Origin: the human T2T-CHM13v2.0 reference genome, Homo sapiens
Direction: 5' to 3' (one strand)
Assembly (NCBI RefSeq): GCF_009914755.1
Contig: NC_060945.1
DNA length: 64,000 nt
Notes under the pieces: model-generated
The model's input: only the letters and a program-made list of their open reading frames with translations
What the model was told of the DNA's origin: nothing
Databases searched by the model: none
Shown here: positions 5,602 to 61,397 of the stretch, piece by piece
Position numbering within the stretch: the stretch's first letter is position 1
How the letters are laid out: every line of letters begins with the position of its first letter
Translations under genes and position numbers: made by a program

Positions 5602-5780
5602 TTTGAATTCTGACTACTCCTAGTGAGTGCACTTTCTGCTGTTACAGAAACAACTGAAAACAGTCAGCAGTGTGCTGTCTAATGCACAGCATCAGATAAG
5701 GTTGAGCCCAGGGACCTGCCACTTCCTCCTTCGGTCAGGATATGACTTCAACATTTACATGGGTAATTTTTTTTTCTTAC
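5602..5780 (-). promoter_or_regulatory. SAMSN1: SAMSN1 proximal promoter and 5'UTR with haematopoietic motifs
   Basis: Directly upstream of the ATG. PU.1/ETS site GAGGAAGTG (minus, 5720-5728), GATA site AGATAA (5694-5699), half-MARE TGCTGACT (minus, about 5662-5669). No CpG island. The exact TSS cannot be read from sequence. Confidence 0.65.
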
Positions 5781-41442: not shown

Positions 41443-41795
41443 CCATGAATGTAGGAGATCCATATCTGAGCAGGAAGACTTGAGACGTGTGTGGCGAATA
41501 CAAGAGGAGCAGTGGTCCCAGGGTCCAACTTGTGCTATTTGGAAATCAAGACATGTCCAGAGAGGGTTTTCAGGAAAAAGCTTCCAGTGATGCCACATGT
41601 AAGCTTCACCTTCATACCAAGCTAATTTATCTTCCAAGTTGCAGTCATTTAAAGTGCTGGATCTACCCAGTGATGCAGAAAGAGTATCCAATCTAATCTC
41701 CATTTCTTCCTTCCTCCTCGTGCTAACACTATTCACTTTCTTTTCTCGGGACTTGGTTAATTTCAAACAAGAAATCAACGTGTCATCTTCATCTT
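41443..41795 (-). CDS. SAMSN1: SAMSN1 upstream coding exon, 353 nt, phase 1 to 0. The internal ATG at 41703 (MEIRLDTLS...DLLHSW, 87 codons) starts the alternative N-terminal isoform
   Basis: Acceptor tttctttgtcattcag|AAGATG and donor TCATGG|gtaagt. Open across the whole exon (ORF 41269-41778 frame). The peptide matches the alternative SAMSN1 N-terminus as I recall it. Ends in phase 0, like exon 1. Confidence 0.9.
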
Positions 41796-42643
41796 CTGAA
41801 TGACAAAGAAATAGGTTAAAAACTATGATTATAATTCTTCACATATAGGAATTATTCTTCCATTTATATAAGAGAAATAAATACACTGCAATGGATAAAC
41901 CAAGAAGTCATTCAATTTTATAAAATTATTTACAGCAGCATTTATTTAAAAAGCAAGTTATTTTGCTATATAAAATTTTTTGTTTTGTAAAAGTCGCATT
42001 TTTCTGACATTTTTGAAACCATAACAATTGATTAAATTCTATCTCACTGGAAAGAATGGAGGCCACATACAAATAATATGCTGAAAGATATTTGAGAAAA
42101 AAATACAATTAAAAAACCCACCTCTTATGTTTCTATTCTTAAATATTTTTTTAATTTTTAAGGTCATGTGTATAATAAAGAATTATAAGGAAATAAATAA
42201 AATTATTTGCCTTACTTAAAAGAATAAAATCTCAGTGGTTTGGACTGAAATCCTACTGACATTCTGAAATTGTCTATTTTAATATCAATCTACCAAGAGA
42301 TGTATGGATGCAGTGTGTCTCACAGTGAAATGGTTTTCAAAAAACAAGAACGACAAAAATTTAAAAAAGCCATATCTGTAATACCATAAAGTTCATTTGT
42401 GAGATCTATATTTACACAATGTGGCAAAGACTCTGATGAAATTTCTAGTAATGTAGAAAACAGTTACAGAAAATAGAAATATATATCACCCAGAGTCAAT
42501 TGCTCTATGTCATGGAATCCCTTTAAATCCAAACGTTTAATGGGTATTTTTAAAAGAGTTCGATTACTTAAGGCATGCTATTATAAATAAATAAATGAAA
42601 ATCAAAGTTGCATGCCATGGACATACCAATTTGCTATGCTTAC

Positions 42644-42790
42644 ATCAAAATTCAAATACATTGTTTTCTATGGCCAAGGAATGGCGACAGTGGACACTGC
42701 TGAGCTTCCTCCATTGCTCTCTCTCACTGTGTCTCGGAGCCCGGTCTTGAAGGCAAGGAGAAACGGGGCGGTGCATAAATACGGGGTAAA
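42644..42790 (-). promoter_or_regulatory. SAMSN1: Candidate alternative promoter and short non-coding first exon for the MEIRL isoform
   Basis: Local CpG enrichment, GC box GGGGCGG at 42765-42771, donor GAT|gtaagc at 42644/42643. The TSS position is an inference. Confidence 0.45.
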
Positions 42791-42956
42791 ATTCAGGAAC
42801 AGATGGGGATGTCTGTTTTAAAATAACTTGGCAATAAAAAAAAATCCTCAATGTTTAATGATTATCTTAAGACTTTATCAAAATGGGCTTCATTAACGTA
42901 TGCTTCCTTAGTTCTCCCTCAAAGGAGTTTTAACAGCTTATTGAGTTCTTACTTAC

Positions 42957-43083
42957 GGAGGTTTATTAATGTCGGTTTCACCTCATCCAGATTCTGCACT
43001 CTGGCTTTCTTAGTCCAAACCAGTTTCTGTAGTCGCTTTAATGTCCCCATTGATTCCACAGGGTCACTGCCTGATTTTATGGC
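42957..43083 (-). CDS. SAMSN1: Coding exon of a long SAMSN1 isoform, 127 nt, phase 0 to 1 (AIKSGSDPVESMGTLKRLQKLVWTKKARVQNLDEVKPTLINL)
   Basis: Acceptor tgtgtttgtgctag|GCC and donor CTCC|gtaagt. Stop-free and in frame with the 41795 exon (C+AA=Q). Resembles the SASH1 segment ESVKFKRLHKLV...VEEMKKP (recalled). Confidence 0.8.
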
Positions 43084-45293
43084 CTAGCACAAACACAGCT
43101 CAAGGTAAAGACAAATTATTCCTCACAAAAGATTAAATATAAAATATGTTGAGATCATAAATGTGGAAAAATTAATAATGTGACCTTAAAACCTGAAGCC
43201 TGAGTCAATTTAAGCACTAACTTGAAAGCACACCATACTTTTTGGGTTCAAAATTATAAAATATGTTACAACTGGCCAGTCATACTAAAGCAGAGTGGTT
43301 TTACCATTTTTTTTTTTTTTTACTTCAAAATACAGCAAAATGGATTGAATTCAGAAATATCTATAAATGACTCACTCCTGCCCACTGTGAAACAGCGGAA
43401 AAAAACAAGATCTTTGCAGTGTAATATAGATGGAACAAGAGGTTCAAAGTTGCTATTTGCTAGTATTGGAATAGACTGATAGTATACAAAGTCTACCTGC
43501 TAATATTAGATAAAGCAGAATTTAAATAGTCTTCATTTTCTTTTTGGAAATTTGTGGACAAACAACATTTGTTTCAAGTATGAAAATTTTTCAAATAACA
43601 TACTTTTAAAAAAATAGCCTCTTGCTTTCTAGAAGATATGCACTAAGTGAAACAAAAGATAGCCACAGCATACCACATCATGTTTTAGAATATGTGTCAC
43701 TTGTTTATTATGACAAAATATGGACAAAATATAATTAACATTGCATTAATGACTCTTGTTTTCTTTAAAAGATTCAGGAATGTTTCCCACTAGTTTACTG
43801 TTGAATTTGTATTTATACAGCTTTTACTTATTATCTTAAGTATAGTTCCTCTTAAGGATTTCAAAATACTTTGGAAATTAACTCTTTGTGTGCTAAGTTT
43901 TATAGGAATTGATAAAAATCATTGTGTTCTGTTGAATTCACTAGTTGTGATGTAATACATATAGGAATACTTTTTCATCCAGAAAGTTCTAGACTCAGAA
44001 ATATTTCTCCACCTGCTTTTGTCTCATTCTTTCCATTGAACAGCTGATAAATAGCATCTACAAAGACACTGCAGTTTTCAAGAGGTGAATATTTGCTTCC
44101 TCATTAATGTTTGAATGAGACATATTTATAATAATGCTTTCCAATCCTTTTAAGGAGACTATAAGCCCAAATAAATGTTTGGAAGTAAAGGATATCTGAC
44201 ATGCAACATTTCCAATCTTTATACTCAGCTGTTATCTTTGTTCTTTAAGAATGACTTTGCACAACCAGTATAAACTTGTTGATCTGTCTCTGCAAAATAG
44301 CACTTACGTAGGAAATGTGACGTTTTTGTCAGAGGAAGCCATACCTTTTTGCATTAAATAAGTGGGAAAATATTGAAATCATTTTAATCTTTCAGAAAGG
44401 ACTGTGATGAGATATGCTTAGAAGCACAAAATCTTCCCTCTCTTTCCAAAGGCCATGCTCTGCTCATCACAATTTCTATTGCTGTTTATTTTTTTGTATT
44501 ATTTCTCAGTGTTTCTTTTAGTGCTTTCTGAGTTACTTGATTTTATAGACCCTTTACAACTCAGGAAAGGCCATTTTCTACTCTTTAGACCCTTTCAGAA
44601 ATAATAAGATGACATTGCACAACCATTTTTTCTTTGTTGTGCTTCTATTCTTATGGCAACTTCTTGTTACAGCCAAAGCTTAATTGCTCCACTGAAACAC
44701 TGGCAACAAAAATCGTCTTCTCTTCTCCCTTTGTGAAAAAGGCTTTCACTTAATGTGGAGAAAGGTATTATATACCAGGGAAATGGAACTTTGTATAAAT
44801 GATTTTCCCCCAAGAGGAACTAAAGCATTTGGAAGGTATCTGAATTCAGGTAAGTAAGATCTCATGTCCTAGAGGTTTTAAAACAAACTGACCTTTCATT
44901 ATTTTGTTCACATTCTATTGTAGCCTTTTTAAAGCATGATATTGTTAATTTTTGTATCTTTATTCACTTTGAGTTACTGGACATCAGTCTACTGCATTTT
45001 ATTTATTTTTAAAAATCCTATGTGCCTAGGATTGTACATGGCTTAATAAATATGTACTGAATGTAAATACAATCCTAATTTTATACATGTTTTATATACA
45101 AAATGGAGTATCCATAGTACATGTTTGATACTAGACTCATTACTTTCTAGTAGCAAATTATTTCTGGACAACCTCCTCTTGTTAATAGGTACTATATATC
45201 CAAGGGATGAAATTTAGAGTTAATATTATTATAAAAGATATAGAATCATTACAACTATGTATTAAAAAGAAAATGTATTCAGATTAAAAATAC

Positions 45294-45626
<333 letters not shown>

Positions 45627-45769
45627 TCAAATAATAACCCTATTTATCTCAATTCTCTTATCCATTACCTACATATTTGTACTGAATGTGATTGATTAAG
45701 TTTTATAGTAACATACCTTTTAAATTTTAAATGTGTTCTAAGAAGATTAACCCATAAATTAAACCTAGC

Positions 45770-46400
45770 ATTCAACAAATCAATAAACTTTTATTTGAGC
45801 ACCTAGTAAATGCCAAGCACTATCTCACATTCTGGGGATATGGCATAGAGGAAGTAATATGAGATCACAGTTTTTATCAAGTCTAATTCTAGAGGGAGGT
45901 GACAGGCGATAAACATATAAACAAGTATATAAACATAAGAATGTGACATAAGAAATGCTGTATTAATAATTAACAGGGTGATTAGTGAGGATGCAAAAAG
46001 AGGGTTTATTAATATACTGATCAGGAGGAGCTTCACTGAAGATACTAAAGCTGAGGCCTGAATGATGAGAAGGAACCAGATATGTGAAGATTTAGAGAGG
46101 GTTTAGAATTCAGCAGATGGTCAGAAAGAATATTTCACCTGAGACTTGCATTGGAGAAAAAGTCAGCCAGGCAAGTAGCAGAGAGAAGAGAAGTCTTGGA
46201 ACACAATACAGTTTGCAAAGGTTCTAAAGCTGGAATTTCTGGAAGAATGCTTAGTATGTGCCCATGAAGGGAAAGAAAGGAAGAGTACCAAGAGATGAGC
46301 CCAGAGAATAACAGAGATCCTTCCAGGAAGCTTCTGTAGAGCAGGTTGAAGAATATGGAATATCTAATCAGAGGGTGATACAACTTGGTTTACAGTTTTG
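45770..46400 (-). mobile_element. L2 remnant
   Basis: CATTCAACAAAT...TTTATTTGAGCACCTAGTAAATGCCAAGCACT (antisense L2 3' end), AAGCTGAGGCCTGAATGATGAGAAGGA. Confidence 0.6.
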
Positions 46401-47057
46401 TTCTTCTCTCTCTACTGAATTTTGATTTTCCATTTCAATGGACTCTTCCCAATAGCATTCAAACGTGCTTCATGTTATTCATCTTTACTTCACCATCTTT
46501 TATTTACCACTTTTTCTATTCTTCTTTGATCCTAGGCATTTGTATCAAAAATGTGAACTATGTATGCTTCCTTTAATTCTATTAACTTCTCATCCTTTTA
46601 ATCTATCTCATCTATCAGCTTTCATCTCTACCATTCCCTTTTAATTGTCATTTTGATCTAATGAGCCATTCTTAAACTCCTTTACTATTTGATATTCAGC
46701 AATGTTGACCACAGTGACCTTCTGGAAACACTCTCTTTTCTTGGCTTCTGTGACACCATGTTCCTCTGATTTTCCTTTTGCCTTTTTTGGCCCTTCCCTC
46801 TATAACTCCTATATGCTGACACCTTCCTTTTCTTGAAATTAAATTTTGAAATTACTTAAGGATTAACCCTGGCCTTTTATCTGATATCACCACCATTCTC
46901 TTCTCATGTGCATGCATGCACACATACCACTTTTAATATCACTTATATGCTAATGACTCCCAATTTATTTCTTTCCCCAGGCCTCTCTGCAGAGCTTCAG
47001 ACTCACATATCCAACTATGTATTTAAAACAATTTTTTTTTTGTTTTATCCATCACCT

Positions 47058-47891
47058 TATTTATTTATTTATTTATTTTTTTAATTTTTTTTATTACACT
47101 TTAAGTTTTAGGGTACATGTGCACATTGTGCAGGTTAGTTACATATGTATACATGTGCCATGCTGGTGCGCTGCATTAGGTATATCTCCCAATGCTATCC
47201 CTCCCCCCTCCCCCCACCCCGCAACAGTCCCCAGAGTGTGATATTCCCCTTCCTGTGTCCATGTGATCTCATTGTTCAATTCCCACCTATGAGTGAGAAT
47301 ATGCGGTGTTTGGTTTTTTGTTCTTGCGATAGTTTACCGAGAATGATGATTTCCAATTTCATCCATGTCCCTACAAAGGACATGAACTCATCATTTTTTA
47401 TGGCTGCATAGTATCCCATGGTGTATATGTGCCATATTTTCTTAATCCAGTCTATCATTGTTGGACATTTGGGTTGGTTCCAAGTCTTTGCTATTGTGAA
47501 TAATGCCGCAATAAACATACGTGTGCATGTGTCTTTATAGCAGCATGATTTATAGTCCTTTGGGTATATACCCAGTAATGGGATGGCTGGGTCAAATGGT
47601 ATTTCTAGTTCTAGATCCCTGAGGAATCGCCACACTGACTTCCACAATGGTTGAACTAGTTTACAGTCCCACCAACAGTGTAAAAGTGTTCCTATTTCTC
47701 CACATCCTCTCCAGCACCTGTTGTTTCCTGACTTTTTAATGATCGCCATTCTAACTGGTGTGAGATGGTATCTCATTGTGGTTTTGATTTGCATTTCTCT
47801 GATGGCCAGTGATGATGAGCATTTTTTCATGTGTTTTTTGGCTGCATAAATGTCTTCTTTTGAGAAGTATCTGTTCATGTCCTTCGCCCAC
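47058..47891 (-). mobile_element. Young 5'-truncated L1PA (about 830 bp, ORF2 C-terminus plus 3'UTR)
   Basis: ORF 47276-47878 is near-consensus L1 ORF2 C-terminus ([20 protein letters not shown]...[19 protein letters not shown]...[10 protein letters not shown]). T-rich tail at about 47058-47093. Confidence 0.96.
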
Positions 47892-47994
47892 TAAGCACAG
47901 TCAGAACTGACCTCTAGAACTATGCTCCAAATATGATGCTCATCCCATCTTCTTCAACTCAGTGAAGGCCATCTTCATCCACCCAAGTGCACAT

Positions 47995-48094
47995 TCCATA
48001 ACTAAGAGTTTCATCTATTCTATCTTCAAAATGTATCTTGAATGTCCATAACTAAGAGTTTCGTCTATTCTATCTCCAAAATGTATCTTGAATG
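47995..48094. repeat. 50-bp tandem duplication
   Basis: TCCATAACTAAGAGTTTC(A/G)TCTATTCTATCT(T/C)CAAAATGTATCTTGAATG x2, 2 mismatches. Confidence 0.95.
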
Positions 48095-49577
48095 TTTCTT
48101 TTTCTCCATCTCTATTGTTACCAATCTAGTTTAATTTTCTTTCATTGAAACTACTGTCAAGTCTCTAATTGGTTTTCTTTTCACTTTTGTCTTTGTAATT
48201 TAGAGTCTTCTTTGAAAGATATAAATTTCCATCAAAATGGTAATTATATGTTAATGTAAATGTAATTTTTCATATGTATATATTTAACATGTATATACTA
48301 TGTATTTCATATATTTGTGTCTATAAACAGAAATATCTTTTAGTTCATTTTGCTCACTCTTCCTTAAGTAATACAAAAATTTTGTTAGAAGTGCTTGGTT
48401 AAATATATCTCATTTTCAGACACTTTGCTTGAATATTAATATTAGAGAATACTTTTTAGAAGATAGCATCAATGAATTATTGAACTGGATTAGTCCTACG
48501 ATCATATTTTATGAGCTAGGATGGAAATTATTAGACATCTAGTCTACCAGGCTATATAAAAAATGAGAAAACTCAGAGAAGTTAAGTGGCTTACTCAAGG
48601 AAAGATAATTTATTAATAATAGAGTTGGGATGGAAATCAAGTATTCTGACTTTTAATCCAATGTTCTTTCTTACAAGATCTTTAAATGCCAGCATAATTA
48701 CTAGTTATCTAGTATTGACAGCCAAATTAAGACCAACCAAATTCAGGGAATTTATTTGGAGGTTAAATATGGCTTTCCAAAACAGAGGATAAGTATCAGG
48801 TACTTTCAGATTTATAGGCCTATCCTCTTAAATATACATAATTAAGAAGGAAATATATAAATATATGTGTGTGTACGTATGTATATACCTACATATATTT
48901 GCTGGAAAGGCATTTAAAGCTTTTAAATCTCTCTTGATTTTATCACTTCCTTTTAAAGAAGGAAAATTTAGGCTTATGGAGACTAACAAAATCCAGATTG
49001 CGTTATCTGTCTGAATTATGTTCTCTTTACTCCACTAATGAAAAGATAGCTGAATAACACGTCAGACTTGAATGAAGTAAAAAACAAAACAAAACAAAGC
49101 AGAAAACCCTTTGTTTTTGCTCTTCTTCTTAATTTCTGATTTGGAAAAATTTTCCTCTCTAGTGTCATATTTAACAAATATTCAAATAACAAATCCTAAT
49201 AACTTGATGTCTATCTCACATAATTTCTTCAACAGGAGAAATGGAGTTTTTCAAAAATTAATATTTTGGTTTATTTTTAAAGAAAACTGTAATGGAAACC
49301 GAAACTTCAAGTAGTTTCATATGTATCACATTGACAGTTTTCTCTAAGTTTTCTGGTCTTATGACTCGTTGTTTCATTATTAAAACTGTGCCAGTGTATG
49401 CATAGGGCTTAGAAATTTTTTAATGCTCCCATGTATTAAGTGAAAAACCAGAATGTAAATTTGTATAAAAAGTACAAACACCATTATATGTGGCCTTTTT
49501 CTATCTTTATATATTCTACTCTTCTTAGTTTTCTACAGTGAAGATGTGTTAGTTTTGTAATTAGCATAATTGGGAGA

Positions 49578-49906
<329 letters not shown>

Positions 49907-52900
49907 TAAACTACAAAATGTATTTAGAAGGCAGATTTCAATAATCCAATCTATCCTTGCTAAGGACAGAAGTATTCAATTTTTTCTACTGGTAATTTGT
50001 TCTTAGCCACTTGAATGGGAAGGTGCTTAGAGACAGGAAGAAGAGAGCTACTTTCATGGTAAAACAAAATAAAGAAGAGGTTTTAAATGTTGAATTATTA
50101 AACCCCTAACTCTATATCTTCATTTCCTCCTATATAAAAGTGACTAGTCTCTATTCATGACCTAAAACATATTCTAAAAAGATAATTTTTAAGGTCACAA
50201 TGATCAATAAACATTTAGAAACTCAATGGACAGTAATAAAACCAATGGGATTATGAACTAGAATTGATCAATGCAAACACATGAAAACAAATACATTTCA
50301 CTTCAGAGGTTTATTTTATTGCTTTCTTGGAAATACAATTAATTAAAAAGACAATTTAAGATAATTTATGCAAATGAAATATTGATTGAAGAAATAATTA
50401 CAGTTGGTGGGAAAATTGCCATGTTGACATTAGATATTCATATATCATTATAATTTTAAAAATTATTATTTTTCAGTGATAGAAACTGAACTTAAACTAA
50501 GATTGGAAAAACACAATAAAGCTAGGCAAAATTTTAAGTCATCAAATAAATGAGTAATTGAATGAATTAGTTAATAAAATCAAATATATTCTCCTGGAAG
50601 GCTTATAAGACATTTATTTATTCATTTATCAGATGAGGACCTAATTTATTACTGAGGACCTAATCTACGGGAGGTGCAAAGAAGAATGAAATATTGTGTC
50701 TGCCTGTGATGCACATTGCTTAATATGAATACTAAGAAAAATAGTCATCTGTTTCTGTTCCTGTCCCCCTCACTGCAAGGTGATTTCTTTGGGGTTCTAG
50801 TACTGTTTTACACATATCACTTCCTAGAGTCAGTATGGTCAATAAATACATTCAATCTCAACAGCAGGCCAAAAATACATCTGGAGGAAAAAGTAGATGT
50901 GTCATATGAGAACTACAAATAAAATTCAATGATTATTCACAGGAGAAAGATTGCATAAGGTGAGAGTAGGGAGAAGAAATGTGCTTGGCTAGAGGATTAG
51001 CAGGTATTTAAGAAGCTAAGCAGTATAATTTAGGTTATCTAACAAAGCCATTTATGTAATAGTCTTATTCCACTGTAAAAACACTAAAACCCTTTCAAGT
51101 CCTAACATAATATTCTAGCTCCTCCTTCCTCTCAAGCAGATTTTGATGTGCATAATTCTGGTTTTGGAATAACATGCCCTCTGAGAACACAGTAAAAAAA
51201 GAAAGGAGTCTTTCAGAAGCCACACAGGCCCAATTTTCCATAGTATAATGAAGTCGCAATGTCACTGTCATTTCTCCACTTCTGCAGGGGAAGCCAAGAC
51301 TGCTTTTTGCTCACTGACCTATAGCTTTGGGTCAGTCTTTGAATGTGGACACACTGCCAAGCTAGCTGGGAGTTGCCAGGATTACACAAACCAGCATTGC
51401 AAATGGGGGTTGTGTTGATTTAAGAGAAAAGGCCACAGAAGCCACATCTTTCTTACTTCCTGCGTAATATCCTCTGCTCTGAAATTTTGAAGAAGTTTCT
51501 AGAACTACTCATAAGAACATTTCTGTTTCTGGGTACACCTCCTAGCTGACCAAAAATTATGAACAATAGGAAATTTAAGAGCCAGTATGCAAATTAATTA
51601 ATTTTTATTAAGTATCTATTGGATTCTTAGCAAGAAGAGGAGCTATGAATGGAAAATTACACAGTAAAAAAACATTTTTATCTAATATTTATTTCATATA
51701 CACAAGAAATGTTAAGAAAACCTAGAGTAAGAACCTGCCCTTGTGTGCCGACTAATGATTGTTCTGCTTTGAAAATCTGCTTTGTGACTGGCCATGTGAA
51801 CTTGAGTGAGCCACTTCTCCTCTCTGCACTTCAGCCCTTCATCTTTAAATTGAAGGATTGGATCACAGGAATTCATTGTTCCTCAAATATCCTTGGGGAC
51901 ATTTGACTAGATAAGTATCTTCTTTTGTTACTTTACATAAATTCTTGAGCCTTAGAAAAATATCAAGGAAAAAGTGAGAATGACCTACTGTTAATCACAG
52001 ATTATCAGAGTCTAAAGAAATATTCTCTACTCCAACATTTTACTTCAAAAATGTGGAAACGGAAATGCAGAAATACGAATTAAGTGGCCTAAGAGCACAG
52101 TCCGTGGTAGAGCCAAGTCCTGCAATCTAGTTCTCTTGCTTCTGTTTCTAATTAAGGAATTTCATAATCCTCCCAAATGTATAGCTTTATTTTCATCTGA
52201 AAGTCCTGTTAGTATTTACTGAGGTTCATTTGTTTGTTTCCCACAGCTTTTTGATATTTAACTAGTCATTAAAAACTCAGATAGCATGAGAAATAGCAAT
52301 AATTTTCTTTTAGGGAACAGAAGTAATATTTAAATCATAACTTTCCATCACCTCTTCCTCCTACCTAGCACAACTTAGACATCTCTTAGACAAAAAAATA
52401 CATATAGTTGAAAAGAAAACTATTATAAAAACTTAGATGTTAATAACATGTTAATAATATTGGGGAAGAGAGAGCTATAAATAAAGATATCAAAACTTTT
52501 GTATTCATACCTACATAAAGAAACATGATTTACTAAGAGTAGTTATTTCTCACAAAATTACAGTTACATTTTGGGAAGCAATGGTCAAATAAGTTGCAAA
52601 CATTAGCTTGTAGTGTTCTGAAGCCATCTAGAACAAGAACTACAAATAGGACTTATAGTTGTTTCATATCAATAATGCTATAATACTTGTTGATGTATGT
52701 GAATATCCTGGAAATTTGCCTGACCTTCTAAAACATGTCCTTTCCATGAACTTCTGTTTAGCAATATCTCAACAAGGAAAGGAAGGCAGTTGATGTGATT
52801 TTAATATCATAAGGGAGAGCTGGCACACAGAGATACTTTTTAAAAAATGGTTTTACTATATTTCATTCTATGGACTATAATCCAATTAATTACTTGATTT

Positions 52901-53310
52901 CCTGTTATGGCATACTCATGCTGTTTCCAAGTTCTCTTTTTTAGCAATGCTATAATGATGTACACTTCTCCCAGAAACATGGGATAACACCTATTTCCCC
53001 CAAAATCAGACGACATGCTTTTTAACATTATAAATTTTTTCCTATCTCAGGAAAAATTGCTAAATTTTAGGGAAAATTTTTTATATAACAACCTTTCCTT
53101 CTTTGAAGGAAATGCTTTATGTTCCTTTTAGTTCAGAAAACCACTCAGTAAGGACAAGCCTCTATTTATGTTCTTTAGAAACACTTCCATGTGGCAGCTG
53201 AAAACAGAAGTAATAAAGAACTATAGAAAACAGTGCTTGTGGCATTAAAATGAGTGGAAAAGAGATGGGAAATCCACTTAAATAGTTACATCTGGGAAGA
53301 AATGTCTCAC

Positions 53311-53376
53311 CAGTTCATCAACAGTGGTCTCAACATGTCTTTGATAGTGAAATGGACTCCAACATTCAGAGGTCAC
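53311..53376 (-). CDS. SAMSN1: Coding exon of a long SAMSN1 isoform, 66 nt, phase 0 to 0 (VTSECWSPFHYQRHVETTVDEL)
   Basis: Long pyrimidine tract tctctttttccttttctaatttctaag|GTG and donor CTG|gtgaga. Stop-free, and the phase matches both neighbouring exons. Confidence 0.75.
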
Positions 53377-54050
53377 CTTAGAAATTAGAAAAGGAAAAAG
53401 AGACAACTAATGTTAACATTCTTTAAAAAACAAAACAAAAAAACTCCACAAAGCTACCAAACTAATTGGGAAAGGATTCGCTGTCTTAATTAGAAATAAT
53501 TATCTTGTTATCAAAGTACACTGATTAATGTTTCATCAGTGACTTCATCTGCATATATACACATATATAGACAAATATGGAATATGTGTATGTATACATA
53601 GTATATACACATTATATATCCATATATGTGTGTGTGATATGTGTATGTGTCTATGTGTATTAGATTCACTCCTCAGCCCTCACATAGAGCAATTCCAATC
53701 CATGATCTCACATTTAGAAGGGTTGGTGGAAAGGGGGGATCCCGAATGTTTTATGAAGCAGCCCACTCTAATCCCTTAGTGCTCTACATTATTAGGTACA
53801 CAATGGACATCCATTTTAGATACTCTAATTGAGTTTAAACTCAAGCCAAATACACATTTGGATTAATATCTCAAGTCATAGTGTGGGATGTCTTTTATTA
53901 CATTTGGTACCTGTCAGTGTAACCTTCTAACTGTCAGCTTCTACTCCTTTTGAAAACTTTATGTACCTGATATCAAACAATTTCTACCTAGGGCACTTCA
54001 GGACTGCAGCAAAGGGCATTTGATGGAGTCTATAACAGGTAATAAAATGG

Positions 54051-54783
54051 TGCTGTGGTCTGAATATTTGTGTTGCCCCCAAATTAATATGTTGGAATGT
54101 AATACACAATATGATAGTGTATTAGTCCATTTTCACATTGCTGTGAAGAAATACCTAAGACTGGGTAATTTACAAAGAAAAGAAGTGCAATTTGCACACA
54201 GTTCTACAGGCTGTACAAGAAACATAGTGGCTTCTGCTGTAGGGGAGGCCTCAGGAAGCCTCCAGTCATGGTGGAAGGCAAAGGGGGAGCAGGTTTTCTT
54301 ACATTTCAGGAGCAAGAGCAAAAGAATGAAGGCGGAGGGGCTACACACTTGTAAACAACCAGATCTCATGAGAACTCACTTACTGTCATGAGAACAGCTC
54401 CAATGGGTTAATGCTAAACCATTCATGAGAAATCCAATCCCATGATCTAATCACCTCCTACCAGGCCCCACCTACAACACCAGGAACCACAGTTCAACAG
54501 GAGATTTGGGCAGGAACACTTACACAAATTATATCAGATTGTATTAAGAGGTGGGGCTTTTGCGGAAGTAACTAAGTCATGAGGGCCCTCATGAATGGAA
54601 TTAGAGCCCTTATAAAAGTGGTTGAGGGGAGCTGCCTTGCTCCCTTTTTGAAGCAGACACTGAATCTGCTGGTGCCTTGTCTTGGACTTCTCAGCCTCTA
54701 GAGCTGTGGGAAATATGTTTCTGTTTTTACAAATTACCCAGCCTAAGGTACTTTGCTATAGCTGCCTGAAAGAACTAAGACAA
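54051..54783 (+). mobile_element. MaLR LTR (MLT1A/MST-like) hosting a nested LTR
   Basis: TGCTGTGGTCTGAAT start. Resumes TATTAAGAGGTGGGGC at 54542 and ends TATAGCTGCCTGAAAGAACTAAGACA. Confidence 0.75.
54118..54536 (-). mobile_element. MST-type MaLR solo LTR nested in opposite orientation
   Basis: TGTATTAGTCCATTTTCACATTGCT...AAATTATATCA. TSD GATAG / GATTG. Confidence 0.85.
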
Positions 54784-55704
54784 AGGTGATTTCAAATTTT
54801 ATTCTGAGGAGAGTCTGCAATGAGATTAAGAGGAATTTAGAGACAGGGAAATATGAATATTCATTAAACATCTTGAGGGAGTATGCTCCTTTATTTAAAT
54901 ATTTATGACAATCGCAAGAAGTTTTATTGTCACTATTTTACACATAAGGAAATTGAAGCACAGAGAGTTTAAGCAACAAGTTTAAAGTCCAGTGTTTTTA
55001 CTCATATAAATGTAAGGCAAGTTTGGTTTCCATAAAGTCTAAACCCCAGCAGAATTCTGGAGTTCTAGCACACAAAATATAGCCAAAGAGCAAGAGGTTT
55101 GAAGCAGAAAACTGACAAAGTAGCTGAAGTGACTGCAACAAGTACTAAGTGGTTGGATTTTATTTTTGACACAGTATATAAGAGTGCATTTACTAGCCAT
55201 TTTCTGGGCTGCGAAATTCCTTTTTAAAAATGCATGAGAATGATGCTAAGGAATACCAAATAAGTCCTCTCAATCTTTTAGGGAAATCAAAAAGTAAAAC
55301 ACCCATACATTTATGGAGTTCATTCATAAAAATTATTTGTTAGAATCAAGTATTTCCTCTTTTTTAAATAAAAGCTAAATGTAGAGTTGCTTAAACTCTC
55401 TTCTTTAAACGTGAAAGTACACATCATTAATGCAGTATAACTTCGGATAAGGAAATGAGAGAATCCAATATGATCTTAATTTTATTTCACCGGAAACAAG
55501 AGATTTGCATTCCATTTTAATAACCTGTTTCTTTAATACCAACAAAAGCCACTCTTGAAAGTCTTCTACTATTAAAGAGGAGATTAGATTTTTTTTCAAG
55601 ATAACGAAATATAGCCCTATATTCTTTCTACCTGCAAAATAAGTTATAATCCTGCTCTTTGGAAGTAGAAAACTTCTCTGTCTATAACCTCAAAATACTA
55701 TTAG

Positions 55705-56273
55705 GTAGTTCTAGTGGTTTTAAAATACACTCACAAATTCTTTTACACTGAAGAGGTCTTCAGAAGGTGGAACCTAAGACTGCCCCTCACCCTTAGTGTG
55801 AGCTGGATTTAGTGAGTTGCTTCTAACAAATAGAATAAAATGGAAGTGATGATGTTTAACTTCTGAAATTAGATCTTAAAAGGAATTGTGGCCTCTTCTT
55901 GTTCTGTGTCTTAGATACTCACTCTGGGGAAACCAGATGACATTCTGCGAAGACACTCAGCCTCATGGATAGACCAAAGTGGCAAGGGACCTATCCCTGC
56001 AGTCAATTCCCATAAAAAAACTGAGGTCACCTACCTATAGCCATGAGAGGGAGTTAGAAACAAACCTTTCAGCCCCAGTCAAGCCTTCAGATAACACCTT
56101 GAGCGACACTAACCACCTGAGATTATAACCACATGAGAGACTCTAAGCTAGAAATGCCCAGCTATACCACTCCCCAACTCCTGACCCACAGGGACTGTGA
56201 AATAATTTTTTTTGTTTGTTTTAAGCCCCTAAATTTTAAAGTAATTTGTTATGCGTCAATAGATTTGTAATAC
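55705..56273 (+). mobile_element. MaLR LTR (MLT1F/G-like)
   Basis: TTGCTTCTAACAAATAGAAT, CAGCCCCAGTCAAGCCTTCAGAT, CTCCTGACCCACAG, TTTTAAGCCCCTAAATTTT. Confidence 0.7.
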
Positions 56274-56907
56274 AATAGTTAAAAGTCATATAATGGATAA
56301 GAAAGTACTTGAAATAAGAAACATTGATCAATACACAATATCATTATTTTGTCATAATATAATCATGTCATACATAAAGACTATCATTTGGTTGACACTG
56401 TCATTTTGGACTCTTTTTGTTTGTTTGTTTTCCCCCTTTTAGATTGTTCACACTTTTGTTTAGAACTCCCTCAAATCTGTCTGATAAAACCTAGTGAAAG
56501 ACCTGTCTCTCCTGCTTGTTAATATATCACAGCATAACCTTAAATTATTTCTCCAGTGACCCAGCGTTGTGACCTCAGTTAAGCTCATGAAAAATTGGTC
56601 CCATTTTGTCCATTCTACACGCATCTCCCAAAAATTGTGTGCTATGTTGGATACAGTTTTAATTCTGTACATAGCCAATGGGATGTGTATGGCCAATATT
56701 TTATTTGTTAGTAATCCAATTTTCATCTTAAGGACTAAATGACTAACTCTAAATGCTGGTTACACTACATGAGAACTGAAGGAGGCTAGTTTAGTTTGTG
56801 CAATAAGAGGTGAGTCTAGACACTGTTTAACTGTGGACACAGTTTTGTCTGATTGCTTACATAGAGCAGAGTTTAGCATTAGCAAAAGTGATTGTTTTAA
56901 AAATAAG

Positions 56908-57330
56908 GTATCAGAAATGTATTCGGCTTTGAGGAAGAGAATAACCAACAGTGGTGGCTTAAACAAGTATGGGGCTTATGTTTCTGTAAAATAGAAGTGC
57001 AGACATAGGGTTTCCAACCCGGGTGCCGCTTCTCAAGGATGTCCTCAGTGAATCAGGCTCTATGCATGTGCCTGTTCCACCATCCTTCATGTGTGCCTTT
57101 GCCTCACGGCTGGAAGACAGCTGCTGACTTACCAGGTATTACATCCAGCTCCAGGCAGGAAAGAGAGCAAAAAACAAAGCTTTATCCTCATGAGACTCTG
57201 CCTTATTTTTTTTATTTTCCAGAAAAGAAAGTCCTCCTCTGGAATTTCTGACTATATTTCATTGGCCACAACTGGATTCCATGGCCACCCCTAACTACTG
57301 GGGAGGCTGAGAATTCAAATGCTGAAAATT
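56908..57330 (-). mobile_element. Old MaLR LTR (MLT1J/K-like)
   Basis: AACAGTGGTGGCTTAAACAAG ... TCATTGGCCACAACTGGATTCCATGGCCACCCCTAACT...GGGAGGCTGAGAA. Confidence 0.6.
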
Positions 57331-58391
57331 GCAATCTCCATAGTGAAAGACACGAAGAAAGAAATTGATTGAAATGGGTTAATTAATTCAATTAGCAACA
57401 CTTTTTCTCAGCAAAGGAGCTGAGAAAGAAAATGTTTTGGTTCAGTCCTGGGTAGGGGTGCTTGACAGTGCTTAATATCACCAGCACTGAAGGTAATAAA
57501 TATTATCTCTCTTTTCTATCATGAATATGAATGATACTCTGAAGGCTGAATGCAACCTCAGAATTTAAGTGAGAAATGAGGCATGCAACACTTTTGAAAA
57601 TATATTAGCCCAAAGTCTGTATTACTGCATATTTTATTCCCCTTTTAATATGCTACAAAAGGTTTGAGCCATCAGCTGAATGCTGCCAGAGAAGAACAAA
57701 CAAGAACAAGAATGCAAAAATAAATGCTGGGAGTCAAGTTTTCCCAAGATGTTCTTTATAGTTGGTGTATGATCACATTTCTAAGCAGACTGCTTTGCTT
57801 CAAGCTCTACCCATCAGCACTTCTTCCACAAGCCTGGTTCTCCAGGAAGTTTATCCCGGGCTAACTATGCAGAAATATACGTGGGGCAAAGTGGGTACTG
57901 GAGAAAGCATTCCATGAACTCCTTCTTTTGCCCTGCTACCTGATTCTGTGTAACTTCTTCCATGCCTGAGATCTTCTCTTCCATTTTGAGAACATGAAGG
58001 AAACATGTTTGCTTAAGTACGTTCTGGTTGGGAATTAAATATTTAATTCTGATCATTTTTAGTGTCTGAAATATATTTCGTAAGCATGGTCATATGATAA
58101 TTATAACTATAAAATGTTTTACATTCTACAAACTTTATCCCATGTTACTAATATTCAGGAAATGATCATAGGAAAATATTTGCACTAGGATACTATTCAT
58201 TATTTTAACTCTTTCTATTTATACATAGTTTTAAGAAATTCTACAATGAATTTATATCATCTTCATAATAGGGAACAAAAATAAACTTCACTTTTTCCAT
58301 GAGGCTGTTGTCTTCCAAGACCATACCTAAGCCAAGTTTGGGTTTATAAAGTCAAAATCATGAGATATCCCATCTGTGAACAAATACTCAT

Positions 58392-59222
58392 GGCTATAAT
58401 TTGGACGTTTGTTGTTTCCAAACTTCATGTTGAAATTTGACCCTCAATATTGGATGTGGGGTGATATGGTTTCATTGTGTCCTCACAAAAAATCTCATCT
58501 TGAATTGTAATCCCCATAATTCCCACGTGTCAAGGGCGGGATCAGATGGAGGTAACTGGATCATGGAGGCAGTTTCCCCCATGCTGCTGTCATAATAATG
58601 AGTGACTCTCATGAGATCTGATGGTTTTATAAGCATCTGGCATTGCCCTTGCTTGCACTCACTTCATCCTGCCACCCTGTGAAGAAGGTGCCTGCTTCTC
58701 CTTAGCCTTCTGCCATGGTTGTAAGTTTCCTGAGGCCTCCCCAGCAAGGCAGAACTGTGAGTCAATTAAACCTCTTTCCTTTATAAATTACTTAGCCTCG
58801 GGTATTTCTTCATAACATTGTGAGAGAGGACTAATACATGGGGCCTAATGGCAGGTGTTTGGGTTATGGGGCTGAATCCTTCTACAATAGGTTAATGTTC
58901 TCCCTCAGTGGTGAGTTCTCACTCTATTAGTTCCTGCGAGAGCCAGTTGTTTCAAAGAGCTAGGGGTGCACCTCTCCCTGCCTTGCTTCCTCTTTTGCCT
59001 TGGAATCTCTGGGTCCCCTTCACCTTCAGCCATGAGTGGAAGCAGCCTGAGACCTTCACCAAATGCAGATGCCCAATCTTGAACTTTCCAGCCATCATAA
59101 TTGTGACCCAAATAAACCTTTTTCTTTATAAACTACCCGGTCTCAAGTATTTCTTTATTTTGTTTTTATTATTGTTTCTTTATTTTGTGTTGTATTATTG
59201 CAACACAAAATGGACTAAGACA
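58392..59222 (+). mobile_element. MST-type MaLR LTR hosting a nested THE1/MST LTR
   Basis: GCTATAATTTGGACGTTTG...CTTCATGTTGAAATTTGA. Resumes CCTAATGGCAGGTGTTTGGG and ends GCAACACAAAATGGACTAAGACA. Confidence 0.8.
58462..58838 (+). mobile_element. THE1-like MaLR solo LTR, nested
   Basis: TGATATGGTTT...AATCTCATCTTGAATTGTAA...GGACTAATACA. Perfect 5-bp TSD TGGGG (58457-58461, 58839-58843). Confidence 0.88.
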
Positions 59223-61320
59223 CTCACCAACTCTCTTGAATTCAAGAGTTTCATGGTTTGTGTACTGAATATTGTCACATAAAAATACCACTTCCTAGGC
59301 TCCAGTCATGACGATCCAGGTGAACAGGAGTATGGCACCAAAGTCTGCCTTTTTAAGTAATACTCCAGTTGAGGCTGATACAGACAGTTCTCAGATACAC
59401 TTGGAAAAACACTTATCTGATAGTCATTTGTTCACTGATGGAAGGCCAAGTTTCATGCCATAGTCCACTCTTATGCACACTGACAAGCCACTTTGCTACT
59501 CACACCAGCTTCTCCATTTGACAGTGGCTGCCTCTCTTCCCCATCTTTCAACAGATAGTTTGCATCTCCTTCTCCTCAGTCACAAGGAGTTAATAAATTA
59601 ATATTTTGCATAACACTCTTTGTTAAACTATTCTGTCATATAGATAAGTGTTTCTTAGTTAAATTCAATTGAATGTCTACTGTGAATAAAATTTAGATAA
59701 GACCAGTGCCTACTCCCAAACGACGATTTTTAGATTAGATGGCTCCTGCTTGTCTGTCACTAGGTATGAATTCCTTCGATCTTTAGTGATACACTACATG
59801 TCACAGTTGAATGGTTACCATTTGGAAGCACCATTTCTTGCCCAATTTTAACCTTCAGAAGCATTGTTGTTAGGGTAAAGATTTATCTTTAACCATTTTA
59901 TTCAAAGAACTTTCTATGTTACTTTCTTCTTTCCACGAAACGGGTCTATTTTTCTACGAAAAACCTACAGAAGGATTTCCTCTTGGCAGAAGGCATGTCT
60001 AGTGAGCTATTCCAGTAAACCAGCTGTTATTTTTCTCCTGGCCAGCAGACAATGCTTCACTTAGATATTATATCTGAGGTCTCATCTGAATTTAGGAAAA
60101 TGAGACTGCTTGTTTCAGAGATAATCTTCCAGCTGTGCTTGTGCAAGTCTTATTAAGCCCTTGAAAGAGTAAGAGGAGAAGGAGGGTGAGGGAGAAGAGG
60201 AAGAAAAGAGGAGGAGCAATGACAACAAATGAATTTTTGAAAGTATGTCTTAACTACCAGACATAGAACTATAGTGTTTTAATGACAGGTCTCACTGAAT
60301 CCCATGAAAGTACTGAGATATTTTTTATAGATGTATTTTACAGATGATAAAAACAGAGGCAGAGAGAGTCTAAGTAAATTGCACAATGCCACATAGCTAC
60401 TAACAGTCAAAGCAAGATTCAAACTGAGCTCTGTCTGATATCAGAGCTCTCATCCATGCACTGTGGGAGAACCCACTGGGAGATACTACAAGGGCAATGT
60501 GTTATCACATCTTGTAGCATAGGCCTATCACTCTGGTAGCATCAGAGCAGTCAGCAGAAACTCTAGTGGATCAAAATCATGATCTACCATCTAATTTATT
60601 GGAGGGCCTCCAATAGCCTCAGGAATCAGGCTGGATTTAGGAATGTGAGCCCCCCCTTCCTCACCAAATCAGCACTTTATAATTCATATGCTATGTACCT
60701 TCTATCCACTGCACCGAAGAAGTTCAGTTCTAAATTTTCTAATGAAACTATCAGAATGATTAAAGAGAACCTCATGGCTGTCAGAGAAAATATCAAAAGT
60801 CAGTCTGATGCCTGAATTGGCCTTGTTGACTCATATATCCTCTCTTGTTACAGGGTGAATAGCAAGTATTTGGCCATTGATTAATGTTACATTACTATTA
60901 TTAGTGAGGCCAAACATTCAGACTTTTTTAATTATCCAAACTCCTGGGCTAATTAATGCAGTTTTGAAAGGGATTGGTCAGGACTCACAGTTTATGTTTT
61001 TATATAAGTGTTTAGCATAGGTCTTGACAGGAACATCCCAGTATATTAATTTAATATTCCCAGAGTTACTTATCAAAAGGCTGTACAACATGATGTTTTG
61101 CAAAATCAAAATAGTTTATTATCTTATCATCATTGAATTTTTTTCATTTATATTTCAATTCACAGGGACATAAGCATATCAATTATAAAGCAACCTATAA
61201 TAACTAAATAGAAACTAGCTAAAAGGCTGTGTAAGTATTGTACACTATGCCTAATATATTACAGAGCTGAGTAACAAGACGATTTTCACAAAACACGCAA
61301 ATGCTGATTATTCACATTAC

Positions 61321-61397
61321 CTGATAGGAAGTTCCTTGTAGAGTTTTTCCTTGATAGGTATGTATGTTGTTACTTAGAAAATCATCTTCATTTAGAT
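61321..61397 (-). CDS. SAMSN1: Coding exon of a long SAMSN1 isoform, 77 nt, phase 1 to 0 (xLNEDDFLSNNIHTYQGKTLQGTSYQ)
   Basis: Acceptor ttatctcttttcttag|ATCT and donor CAG|gtaatg. Stop-free in the frame that joins the 53376 exon. The upstream partner exon lies outside the window. Confidence 0.72.

What the first reader, a model, noticed from the sequence alone, without database searches (positions are those of the whole stretch)
41443..61397. Four-exon in-frame chain implies a long, SASH1-like SAMSN1 isoform
Seen in the sequence: four minus-strand exons with canonical AG/GT sites (61397-61321, 77 nt, phase 1 to 0; 53376-53311, 66 nt, 0 to 0; 43083-42957, 127 nt, 0 to 1; 41795-41443, 353 nt, 1 to 0). 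They splice into 623 nt without a stop: xLNEDDFLSNNIHTYQGKTLQGTSYQ|VTSECWSPFHYQRHVETTVDEL|AIKSGSDPVESMGTLKRLQKLVWTKKARVQNLDEVKPTLINL|QDEDDTLISCLK...MEIRL...KSSCSDMDLLHSW. The chain ends in phase 0 like the 57-nt exon 1, so it can join common exon 2. Three of these exons are absent from the ORF track. Recalled knowledge: SAMSN1 is usually described as a short SLY-SH3-SAM adaptor, whereas its paralogue SASH1 has a long N-terminus. ESMGTLKRLQKLV...LDEVKP resembles SASH1 [12 protein letters not shown]...VEEMKKP, and KSSCSDMDL...|RSSSFG parallels SRSLTEGEM...|RTCSFG. Inference: SAMSN1 keeps the ancestral long N-terminus and the immune exon 1 is an internal promoter. I recall the upstream exons being annotated as a separate predicted gene (LOC388813) and newer annotation may already join them, so the open question is the protein's existence and function.
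Basis: partly seen in the sequence, partly recalled or inferred. Interest (0 to 1): 0.85.

Follow-up and report, generated by a model that had tools for sequence, protein, structure and literature searches.

The report
Annotated long SAMSN1 isoform, SASH1-like N-terminus
The four exons are real, conserved coding exons of a long form of the adaptor protein SAMSN1 that curated annotation already lists, and part of its extra N-terminal region matches the paralogue SASH1.

Summary
The four minus-strand exons have AG/GT sites and splice into 623 nt that are open in one frame. It is not new. The RefSeq table for this assembly holds two curated transcripts, NM_001395857.1 (669 aa) and NM_001395858.1 (701 aa). 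Both join exactly these exons to five more upstream exons and to common exon 2. The N-terminal extension is found in gene models of placentals, marsupials, platypus, birds, crocodilians, turtles, squamates and amphibians. The link to SASH1 holds only in part. The two exons next to the SPIDER region match two SASH1 exons in phase and nearly in length: 127/353 nt against 133/347 nt. No such exon pair occurs among 1,662 pairs on chr21. The SAMSN1 motif KRLQKLVWTKKARVQNL aligns with SASH1 residues 259-275, which a review lists as NLS1. The rest of the N-terminus shows no SASH1 similarity. AlphaFold2 predicts it to be disordered. Whether the protein is made, and what it does, was not tested.

The parts
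61321..61397 (-). Coding exon 6 of NM_001395857.1. It is 77 nt, phase 1 to 0, and encodes residues about 108-133 of the 669-aa isoform.
   Evidence: AG/GT sites and open frame. Exact RefSeq exon. Present in 20 of 28 placental, 31 of 38 sauropsid and 3 of 5 amphibian models; median identity to human is 79%, 41% and 35%.
53311..53376 (-). Coding exon 7. It is 66 nt, phase 0 to 0, and encodes residues 134-155. It behaves as a cassette-like exon and is the least conserved of the four.
   Evidence: Covered in only 7 of 28 placental models, but in 34 of 38 sauropsid and 4 of 5 amphibian models, at 20-24% identity to human. A W-x-P motif is kept.
42957..43083 (-). Coding exon 8. It is 127 nt, phase 0 to 1, and encodes residues 156-197. 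It carries the conserved island ESMGTLKRLQKLVWTKKA.
   Evidence: Present in 22 of 28 placental, 4 of 4 marsupial plus monotreme, 37 of 38 sauropsid and 5 of 5 amphibian models, at 48-79% identity. Same phases as the 133-nt SASH1 exon.
42988..43038 (-). Basic motif KRLQKLVWTKKARVQNL inside exon 8. It is the positional counterpart of SASH1 residues 259-275 (NLS1).
   Evidence: Translation. SASH1 numbering anchored on Y551 and the NLS1 position from review Table 3. Profile alignment. The only helix predicted in the N-terminus, residues 169-178.
41443..41795 (-). Coding exon 9. It is 353 nt, phase 1 to 0, and encodes residues 198-315. From the internal ATG at 41703 it is also the first coding exon of the 441-aa isoform NM_001256370.2.
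   Evidence: Present in 28 of 28 placental, 4 of 4 marsupial plus monotreme, 36 of 38 sauropsid and 5 of 5 amphibian models, at 34-64% identity. Same phases as the 347-nt SASH1 exon.
42627..42709 (-). Non-coding first exon of NM_001256370.2, marking a middle promoter.
   Evidence: PMC4198825 describes two human SAMSN1 promoter regions (passages seen). That this exon is that paper's upstream promoter is my inference.
50296..51950 (-). Alternative terminal exon. It ends the 160-aa N-terminus-only product of NM_001256579.3, and is also the last exon of NM_001395856.1.
5545..5655 (-). Exon 1 of the canonical 373-aa isoform (coding part 5545-5601). It marks an internal promoter of the long transcription unit.
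   Evidence: Its peptide matches SASH3 exon 1 (64% over 25 aa, E 4.9e-5 in a 220-kb database).

Best explanation
The four exons are coding exons 6-9 of the long SAMSN1 mRNAs that RefSeq already curates: NM_001395857.1 (669 aa) and NM_001395858.1 (701 aa). These transcripts start at a distal promoter outside the window, about 112 kb upstream of the haematopoietic exon 1. They run through nine N-terminal exons and then enter common exon 2. The result is 315 or 347 extra residues in front of the SPIDER-SH3-SAM core. The canonical 373-aa protein comes from an internal promoter, whose exon 1 replaces all of this with 19 residues.

Shown: the exon chain, its place in curated annotation, its conservation across tetrapods, and the match in gene structure between the two proximal exons and the two SASH1 exons that precede SASH1's SPIDER region.

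Inferred: the extension is an intrinsically disordered region that works through short conserved motifs. One of these is a basic, helix-prone motif, KRLQKLVWTKKARVQNL. It is the counterpart of SASH1 NLS1, so it would give the long isoform a second nuclear-import signal beside the SPIDER one. Also inferred: at least the proximal 160 or so residues predate the SASH1/SAMSN1 split, so the long form is the older architecture.
For: Exon chain and frame. Exact identity with BestRefSeq exons and coding parts. Proteins rebuilt from the genome.

Conservation: of 75 stored homologues of at least 530 aa, 73 cover at least 100 residues of the 353-nt exon and 68 cover at least 35 residues of the 127-nt exon. 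Conserved islands run from human to amphibians.

Gene structure: SAMSN1 has 127(0>1), 353(1>0), 72, 150, 130 and 152 nt; SASH1 has 133(0>1), 347(1>0), 75, 144, 136 and 170 nt. All phases are equal. On chr21, 0 of 1,662 consecutive internal coding-exon pairs fit (127±6, 353±6, same length mod 3), and 0.4% of 1,679 exons are 341-365 nt long.

Motif: the exon-8 profile scores 13.5 bits against the SASH1 133-nt exon peptide, and 1 of 5000 shuffles reaches that. With composition correction switched off for all, it ranks 1 of 13,166 six-frame fragments of 250 kb of the SASH1 locus, at E 0.16. SASH1 residues 259-275 and 452-468 come out as [17 protein letters not shown] and KKVKSVKETMRKRMSKK when numbering is anchored on Y551. 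These match NLS1 and NLS2 in Table 3 of PMC13467429.

Disorder: AlphaFold2 on the marmoset 669-aa orthologue with 55 other rows gives pLDDT of about 30 over residues 1-315, with one helix at 169-178. Pfam finds nothing before residue 316, where SPIDER begins.
Against: I saw no transcript reads, Ribo-seq or peptides, so expression and translation of the long form rest on RefSeq curation and on gene models in other species. Many of those models are automatic predictions and could copy each other's structure.

The sequence link to SASH1 is weak. Whole-genome searches with the exon peptides and with a turtle N-terminus hit only SAMSN1 itself. tblastn found nothing upstream of SPIDER. With HMMER's default composition correction, the SASH1 exon fragment falls to rank 4332 of 13,166. 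The full N-terminal profile gives it E 2.4, rank 4 of 10,034.

The 353-nt exon has no sequence similarity to its SASH1 counterpart. The distal exons have no SASH1 match in the parts I read. I located the SASH1 exon with a motif pattern taken from SAMSN1, so the motif test is not fully independent; the phase and length match is independent.

Exon 53311-53376 is missing from 21 of 28 placental models. NLS function in SAMSN1 is untested. The AlphaFold2 model is of low confidence overall (mean pLDDT 41.8), and even the SH3 domain is poorly modelled.
Confidence: 0.85

Rival explanations
1. The upstream exons form a separate small gene (the old LOC388813, with a 160-aa product). On this view the long joined mRNA is a rare read-through or conjoined transcript with no protein function of its own.
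For: RefSeq holds transcripts that stop in the terminal exon 50296-51950 and encode only 160 aa (NM_001256579.3), and a further transcript, NM_001395856.1, that ends in the same exon. Many species carry separate models named 'putative uncharacterized protein ENSP00000383407' of 91-409 aa. LOC388813 was listed as its own gene.
Against: Exons 42957-43083 and 41443-41795 lie downstream of that terminal exon. They are coding only in the joined forms, yet they are among the best conserved N-terminal exons, being present in 5 of 5 amphibian models. Joined models of 538-738 aa exist in all tetrapod groups seen. The two exons are collinear with SASH1 exons that are contiguous with SPIDER.
Confidence: 0.08
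2. The N-terminal extension is real, but its likeness to SASH1 is coincidence or convergence: a basic NLS-like motif plus a chance match in exon sizes.
For: Locus-wide and genome-wide sequence searches are not significant. The 353-nt and 347-nt exon peptides are unrelated in sequence. Basic motifs arise easily.
Against: The two exons sit directly upstream of four exons of undisputed homology, have the same phases, and differ in length by two codons each. No such pair occurs among 1,662 chr21 exon pairs. The motif sits at the same place within the exon and reaches p of about 4e-4 by shuffling.
Confidence: 0.1
3. The exons are non-coding 5' leader exons of an alternative promoter, and the open frame is fortuitous.
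For: In NM_001256370.2 the first 92 nt of exon 41443-41795 are untranslated. Three of the four exons are too short to appear in an ORF list.
Against: Amino-acid conservation reaches amphibians, with an intact frame in 73 of 75 long homologues for the 353-nt exon. The start MNLFC.SLEGSMDSLYEP is conserved.
Confidence: 0.03

Closest known systems
RefSeq SAMSN1 long transcripts NM_001395857.1 (669 aa) and NM_001395858.1 (701 aa)
   Same: They hold exactly the four exons, with the same boundaries and frame, joined to common exon 2.
   Different: Nothing differs. The two transcripts differ only in their start codon.
SASH1 N-terminal region next to SPIDER, including NLS1 (residues 259-275)
   Same: There are two exons directly upstream of the SPIDER exon with identical phases and near-identical lengths (133/347 against 127/353 nt). 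A KRL-x-KLV plus basic-cluster motif lies at the same place. Both regions are predicted disordered.
   Different: There is no sequence similarity in the 347/353-nt exon. No counterpart of the distal SAMSN1 exons was found. SASH1 has about 243 residues before this exon against 155 in SAMSN1. SASH1 also has a long C-terminal linker and a second SAM domain (review).
Canonical SAMSN1 / HACS1 / SLy2, 373 aa (NM_022136.5)
   Same: It is identical from common exon 2 to the C-terminus, covering SPIDER, SH3 and SAM.
   Different: Its N-terminus is 19 residues from exon 5545-5601, in place of 315 or 347 residues from nine exons.
SAMSN1 441-aa isoform (NM_001256370.2)
   Same: It uses exon 41443-41795 and shares the last 87 residues of the extension.
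   Different: It starts at a non-coding exon (42627-42709) and at the internal ATG (MEIRL). It therefore lacks the NLS1-like motif and everything upstream of it.
SASH3 (SLY1)
   Same: Its exon 1 peptide matches SAMSN1's short exon 1, so the short start is shared.
   Different: I did not look for or see a long N-terminus in SASH3. Only 10 kb of its locus was read.

Membership tests
Curated long SAMSN1 isoform (RefSeq NM_001395857.1 / NM_001395858.1) | Exon boundaries and reading frame identical to the curated transcript. | tested here: met
   All four exons and their coding status coincide exactly. The translation matches.
Curated long SAMSN1 isoform (RefSeq NM_001395857.1 / NM_001395858.1) | The transcript and the protein are actually expressed. 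| not testable with these tools
   No reads, Ribo-seq or proteomics were available. The only support is the BestRefSeq status and gene models in other species.
SLy adaptor family (SPIDER-SH3-SAM core) | PF12485 SPIDER followed by an SH3 and a SAM domain. | tested here: met
   In the marmoset 669-aa orthologue P0064: SPIDER 316-460 (E 4.3e-53), SH3_2 463-515, SAM 536-598. The human core is identical to canonical SAMSN1.
SASH1-type extended N-terminus | Exons upstream of SPIDER collinear with SASH1 in order, phase and length. | tested here: met
   This holds for the two proximal exons only: 127/353 against 133/347 nt, phases 0>1 and 1>0. The chr21 background shows 0 of 1,662 such pairs.
SASH1-type extended N-terminus | Significant sequence similarity to the SASH1 NLS1 exon. 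| tested here: inconclusive
   Exon against exon, 1 of 5000 shuffles reaches the score. Locus-wide, E is 0.16 and the rank is 1 without composition correction, but the rank is 4332 with it. Genome-wide there is no hit.
SASH1-type extended N-terminus | Similarity over the rest of the N-terminus (the 353-nt exon and the distal exons). | tested here: not met
   Exon-9 profile against the SASH1 347-nt exon: 2031 of 5000 shuffles score as well. There are no hits for the distal exons in 250 kb of the 359-kb SASH1 locus. SASH1's own distal exons were not identified.
SASH1-type extended N-terminus | Functional nuclear localisation signal. | not testable with these tools
   SASH1 NLS1 is reported as validated by mutagenesis in a review (passages and Table 3 seen). 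Nothing is known for the SAMSN1 motif.

The most novel reading that the evidence does not exclude
The long form is the ancestral, full-length SLy-type scaffold of SAMSN1, and the well-studied 373-aa protein is a promoter-truncated derivative. On this reading the extension is a disordered docking region. It would carry an NLS1-type import helix shared with SASH1, and a very conserved N-terminal SMDSLYEP(I/V) motif that repeats a SPIDER motif and fits an S-x-Y-x-x-I/V phosphotyrosine-site pattern. Such an isoform could have SASH1-like shuttling or scaffolding roles outside blood cells. It would also mean that the extended N-terminus is not unique to SASH1, contrary to the 2026 review.
Probability: 0.3. 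Interest if true: 0.55.

Novelty: already known. Interest (0 to 1): 0.3.

Why it matters
The isoform itself is in curated annotation, so the exon chain is not a discovery. What may be useful is the gap between annotation and literature. A 2026 review of SASH1 draws SAMSN1 as 373 aa and calls the extended N-terminus unique to SASH1 (PMC13467429; passages and figure legend seen). In my searches of the held library, the passages I opened did not discuss the 669/701-aa protein. The evidence here is that the extension is conserved across tetrapods and that its proximal part, including the counterpart of SASH1 NLS1, is shared with SASH1. If so, work on SAMSN1 that uses only the short cDNA, or reagents aimed at the short N-terminus, may miss one form of the protein. 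The deep homology would also help define which parts of the poorly understood SASH1 N-terminus are old and constrained.

Tried and rejected
Whole-genome protein searches of the reference found only SAMSN1 itself and gave no SASH1 hit. The queries were the 127-nt exon peptide, the 353-nt exon peptide and a turtle N-terminal protein.

tblastn of the rebuilt long isoform against the SASH1 pieces found only the SPIDER, SH3 and SAM exons.

An HMM of the whole N-terminus (57 rows) against six-frame fragments of the SASH1 locus gave no significant hit. The true SASH1 exon ranked 4 of 10,034 at E 2.4. A higher-ranking hit at L029:149716998 looked random on inspection. The further pieces added nothing.

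I looked in L030 for a long SASH1 open frame to use as a protein-search query. There was none of at least 150 aa.

The three protein word searches could not reach full-length SASH1. It is reported as 1247 aa (review), and the length window of my longest query ended at 887 aa. So no SASH1 orthologue alignment and no profile-profile test could be made. Only the best 120 of 1,173 hits were listed, so I cannot say whether fishes have the extension. One listed hit named SASH1 (P0128, pangolin) is a mislabelled SAMSN1.

The Atlas search with the N-terminus gave no usable hit. Pfam has no family for residues 1-315. The AlphaFold2 model is too disordered for a fold search, so none was run.

The novel SAMSN1 transcripts of PMC3935309 looked relevant. 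However, their forward primer maps at 5656-5675, next to the short exon 1, and the two reverse primers are not in the window. They are unrelated to the long isoform.

I did not compute dN/dS or PhyloCSF, because no orthologue DNA was available. No supplementary files were opened. Supplements of PMC3935309 and of the bioRxiv paper 10.1101/136275 may hold isoform-level read data that bear on expression.

Full report
**1. Observation**

The window is chr21:12896001-12960000 of T2T-CHM13, inside SAMSN1 on the minus strand.

- Joined, they make 623 nt. Frame 2 is open and gives the quoted peptide, from LNEDDFLSNN... to ...SDMDLLHSW. The other two frames are full of stops.
- Only the 353-nt exon lies in a mechanical ORF of at least 60 aa. 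The other three are absent from the 33 ORFs listed for the region.
- None of the exons overlaps a masked repeat.

**2. It is already annotated**

The RefSeq table supplied for this assembly lists two BestRefSeq transcripts, NM_001395857.1 and NM_001395858.1. Both contain exactly these four exons as fully coding exons. Five further coding exons lie upstream of them, beyond the window end, at window-relative 68780-68866, 72174-72211, 75273-75313, 102311-102442 and 118063 onward. Common exon 2 follows.

I fetched the outside exons from the reference and rebuilt the proteins:

| Transcript | Product | Note |
|---|---|---|
| NM_001395857.1 | 669 aa | long isoform, starts MNLFC... |
| NM_001395858.1 | 701 aa | long isoform, upstream start codon |
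| NM_022136.5 | 373 aa | canonical short form |
| NM_001256370.2 | 441 aa | starts at MEIRL inside exon 41443-41795, after the non-coding exon 42627-42709 |
| NM_001256579.3 | 160 aa | N-terminus only, ends in exon 50296-51950 |

The short exon 1 (5545-5655) lies inside the intron between exon 41443-41795 and common exon 2. It is therefore an internal promoter of the long unit.

**3. Conservation**

Three protein word searches were available.

- The 353-nt exon with its read-through tail found 7 proteins among 7 candidates. All were mammalian, at 65-83% identity.
- A profile of those found 52 among 233 candidates. They included marsupial, turtle, bird and newt proteins.
- A wider profile found 1,173 among 2,522 candidates, of which the best 120 were listed.

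The last listing holds long SAMSN1 models of 538-738 aa from placentals, marsupials, platypus, birds, crocodilians, turtles, squamates and amphibians. Candidates known from samples alone were left out by the tool (14, 1,360 and 5,478 respectively).

I aligned the 75 stored proteins of at least 530 aa (out of 155 stored) with the human 669-aa protein. Clade labels were taken from the names in the search listings. Results are in the table below.

| Exon | Models covering the exon | Median identity to human |
|---|---|---|
| 41443-41795 | 28/28 placental, 4/4 marsupial plus monotreme, 36/38 sauropsid, 5/5 amphibian | 64%, 42%, 44%, 34% |
| 42957-43083 | 22/28, 4/4, 37/38, 5/5 | 79%, 54%, 55%, 48% |
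| 61321-61397 | 20/28, 1/4, 31/38, 3/5 | 79%, 31%, 41%, 35% |
| 53311-53376 | 7/28, 0/4, 34/38, 4/5 | 59% in placentals; 20-24% outside mammals |

Exon 53311-53376 is the weakest of the four. It looks like an old cassette exon that has drifted, or is skipped, in many placentals.

Conservation is concentrated in islands:

- the start MNLFC.SLEGSMDSLYEP
- ESMGTLKRLQKLV.TKKA
- L.SC.KLTKS.EKK
- W..WK.FPEN
- D.DL...W, just before the junction

These figures are lower than for the SH3 exons (88-98%) but of the same order as the SPIDER exons (54-92%). Sequence that can still be aligned between human and amphibian, in frame, argues for purifying selection on a protein. I could not run a codon-level test.

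**4. Domain content and predicted structure**

Pfam finds SPIDER (PF12485), SH3 and SAM in three long orthologues, and nothing before SPIDER. In the marmoset 669-aa orthologue, SPIDER begins at residue 316, which is the first residue of common exon 2.

AlphaFold2 was run on that orthologue with 55 other rows.

- Mean pLDDT is 41.8.
- pLDDT is about 30 over residues 1-315.
- There is a single short helix at 169-178, the TLKRLQKLVW stretch.
- The SAM domain is confident.
- The SH3 domain was poorly modelled, so the model is weak evidence overall.

It agrees with a disordered extension that carries short motifs. The review PMC13467429 describes the SASH1 N-terminal region the same way, as flexible and of low confidence (figure legend seen).

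**5. The SASH1 question**

Sequence searches do not make the link.

- Whole-genome searches with the exon peptides, or with a turtle N-terminus, hit only SAMSN1.
- tblastn found only the SPIDER, SH3 and SAM exons.

I read 250 kb of the 359-kb SASH1 locus.

A pattern taken from the SAMSN1 motif located a SASH1 segment reading ...[41 protein letters not shown], and also the RTCSFGGFD exon.

Reading the DNA gives these SASH1 exons, set against the SAMSN1 exons:

| Position | SASH1 exon | SAMSN1 exon |
|---|---|---|
| 1 (NLS1 exon) | 133 nt, phase 0>1 | 127 nt, phase 0>1 |
| 2 | 347 nt, phase 1>0 | 353 nt, phase 1>0 |
| 3 (SPIDER start) | 75 nt, phase 0>0 | 72 nt, same phase |
| 4 | 144 nt, phase 0>0 | 150 nt, same phase |
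| 5 | 136 nt, phase 0>1 | 130 nt, same phase |
| 6 | 170 nt, phase 1>0 | 152 nt, same phase |

The SASH1 exons join in frame, and all length differences are multiples of three. The last four pairs are the accepted SPIDER/SH3 homology. The first two extend the collinearity upstream.

As a background I used chr21 with SAMSN1 left out.

- Of 1,679 unique internal coding exons, 3.5% are at least 300 nt long and 0.4% are 341-365 nt long.
- Of 1,662 consecutive pairs, 0 fit (127±6, 353±6, same length mod 3).

**6. The motif**

Anchoring SASH1 numbering on Y551 (Y551D is named in the review) puts the 133-nt exon at residues 244-288.

- Residues 259-275 then read [17 protein letters not shown].
- Residues 452-468 then read KKVKSVKETMRKRMSKK.

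These are the positions the review's Table 3 gives for NLS1 and NLS2. The review reports both as impaired by site-directed mutagenesis in an N-terminal construct. I saw passages and the table, not the primary paper.

The SAMSN1 counterpart of NLS1 is KRLQKLVWTKKARVQNL, at window 42988-43038. In turtle it reads KRLQKLVRTKKASIHSL.

Statistics for the motif:

- A profile of the 127-nt exon (69 rows) scores 13.5 bits against the SASH1 exon peptide, and 1 of 5000 shuffles reaches that.
- Against all 13,166 six-frame fragments of the SASH1 pieces, the stop-to-stop fragment holding the exon ranks first (11.2 bits, E 0.16; next best 7.1 bits) when composition correction is off for all fragments.
- With the default correction it ranks 4332, because the fragment runs into a translated poly(A) tract.

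So the sequence evidence is suggestive only, and I found the exon by its motif in the first place. The gene-structure evidence is independent of that and is the stronger argument.

**7. What did not match**

- The profile of the 353-nt exon has no similarity to the 347-nt SASH1 exon: 2031 of 5000 shuffles score as well.
- No part of the N-terminal profile upstream of the NLS1 exon found anything in the SASH1 pieces. These pieces include a contiguous 130 kb, chr6:149,609,001-149,739,000.
- I could not identify SASH1's own distal exons, so their structure could not be compared.

**8. The short exon 1**

Its peptide MLKRKPSNVSEKEKHQKPK matches an open frame at the 5' end of SASH3, MLRRKPSNASEKEPTQKKK, at E 4.9e-5 in a 220-kb database. 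The short start is therefore also old and is shared with SASH3. It is not a recent immune-specific addition.

**9. Literature**

- PMC13467429 (2026 review; passages, Table 3 and figure legends seen) draws SAMSN1 as 373 aa. It says SASH1 is uniquely distinguished by an extended N-terminal region.
- PMC4198825 (passages seen) describes two human SAMSN1 promoter regions, with isoform data from Ensembl.
- bioRxiv 10.1101/136275 (passages seen) says most single-molecule SAMSN1 reads fall into two mRNA isoforms.
- LOC388813 appears only in gene lists, beside SAMSN1 at 21q11.
- Searches for a long isoform, for isoform names, for an alternative promoter, or for a family phylogeny gave no paper whose listing or opened passages treat the 669/701-aa protein. 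This holds for the held library only.

**10. Verdict**

The added value here has three parts:
- conservation of the extension across tetrapods
- the exon-structure match with SASH1
- the assignment of the conserved basic helix to the position of SASH1 NLS1

Expression, translation and function of the long protein remain untested.

Noticed in passing
window 41509-41598 (+) against 41443-41795 (-): The first exon of the antisense lncRNA SAMSN1-AS1 lies wholly inside the 353-nt coding exon on the opposite strand. The lncRNA spans the region of three of the four exons (annotation given with the finding).
   Followed up: no
long isoform residues 10-18 (exon outside the window, L011) and the SPIDER region: The hexapeptide SMDSLY occurs twice in the long protein: once in the highly conserved N-terminal island (EGSMDSLYEPIP) and once in SPIDER (SDSMDSLYSGQ). 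The N-terminal copy, SLYEP(I/V), fits an S-x-Y-x-x-I/V pattern. The pattern is recalled from general knowledge and was not tested.
   Followed up: partly
window 41269-41442 (-): The Gnomon model XM_054324759.1 reads through the donor of the 353-nt exon into the intron. This gives a 301-aa product with an unconserved tail. Several models in other species end in similar unrelated tails.
   Followed up: partly
proteins P0075, P0128, P0025: These are database labels or gene models that do not fit the sequence. P0075 is a turtle long SAMSN1 named 'immunoglobulin J chain'. P0128 is a pangolin SAMSN1 named SASH1. P0025 is a newt model whose first 220 or so residues look like a reverse-transcriptase fragment fused to the SAMSN1 N-terminus.
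   Followed up: partly
L029 1764-1790 (chr6, SASH1 intron after the 133-nt exon): A poly(A) run starts right after the donor of the SASH1 NLS1 exon. In a stop-to-stop translation it adds a poly-lysine tail, which makes HMMER's composition correction suppress the true exon.
   Followed up: yes
window 5656-5675 (-): The forward primer used in PMC3935309 to validate new SAMSN1 transcripts lies just upstream of the annotated start of the short exon 1. Transcription from that promoter can therefore begin further upstream than RefSeq shows.
   Followed up: partly
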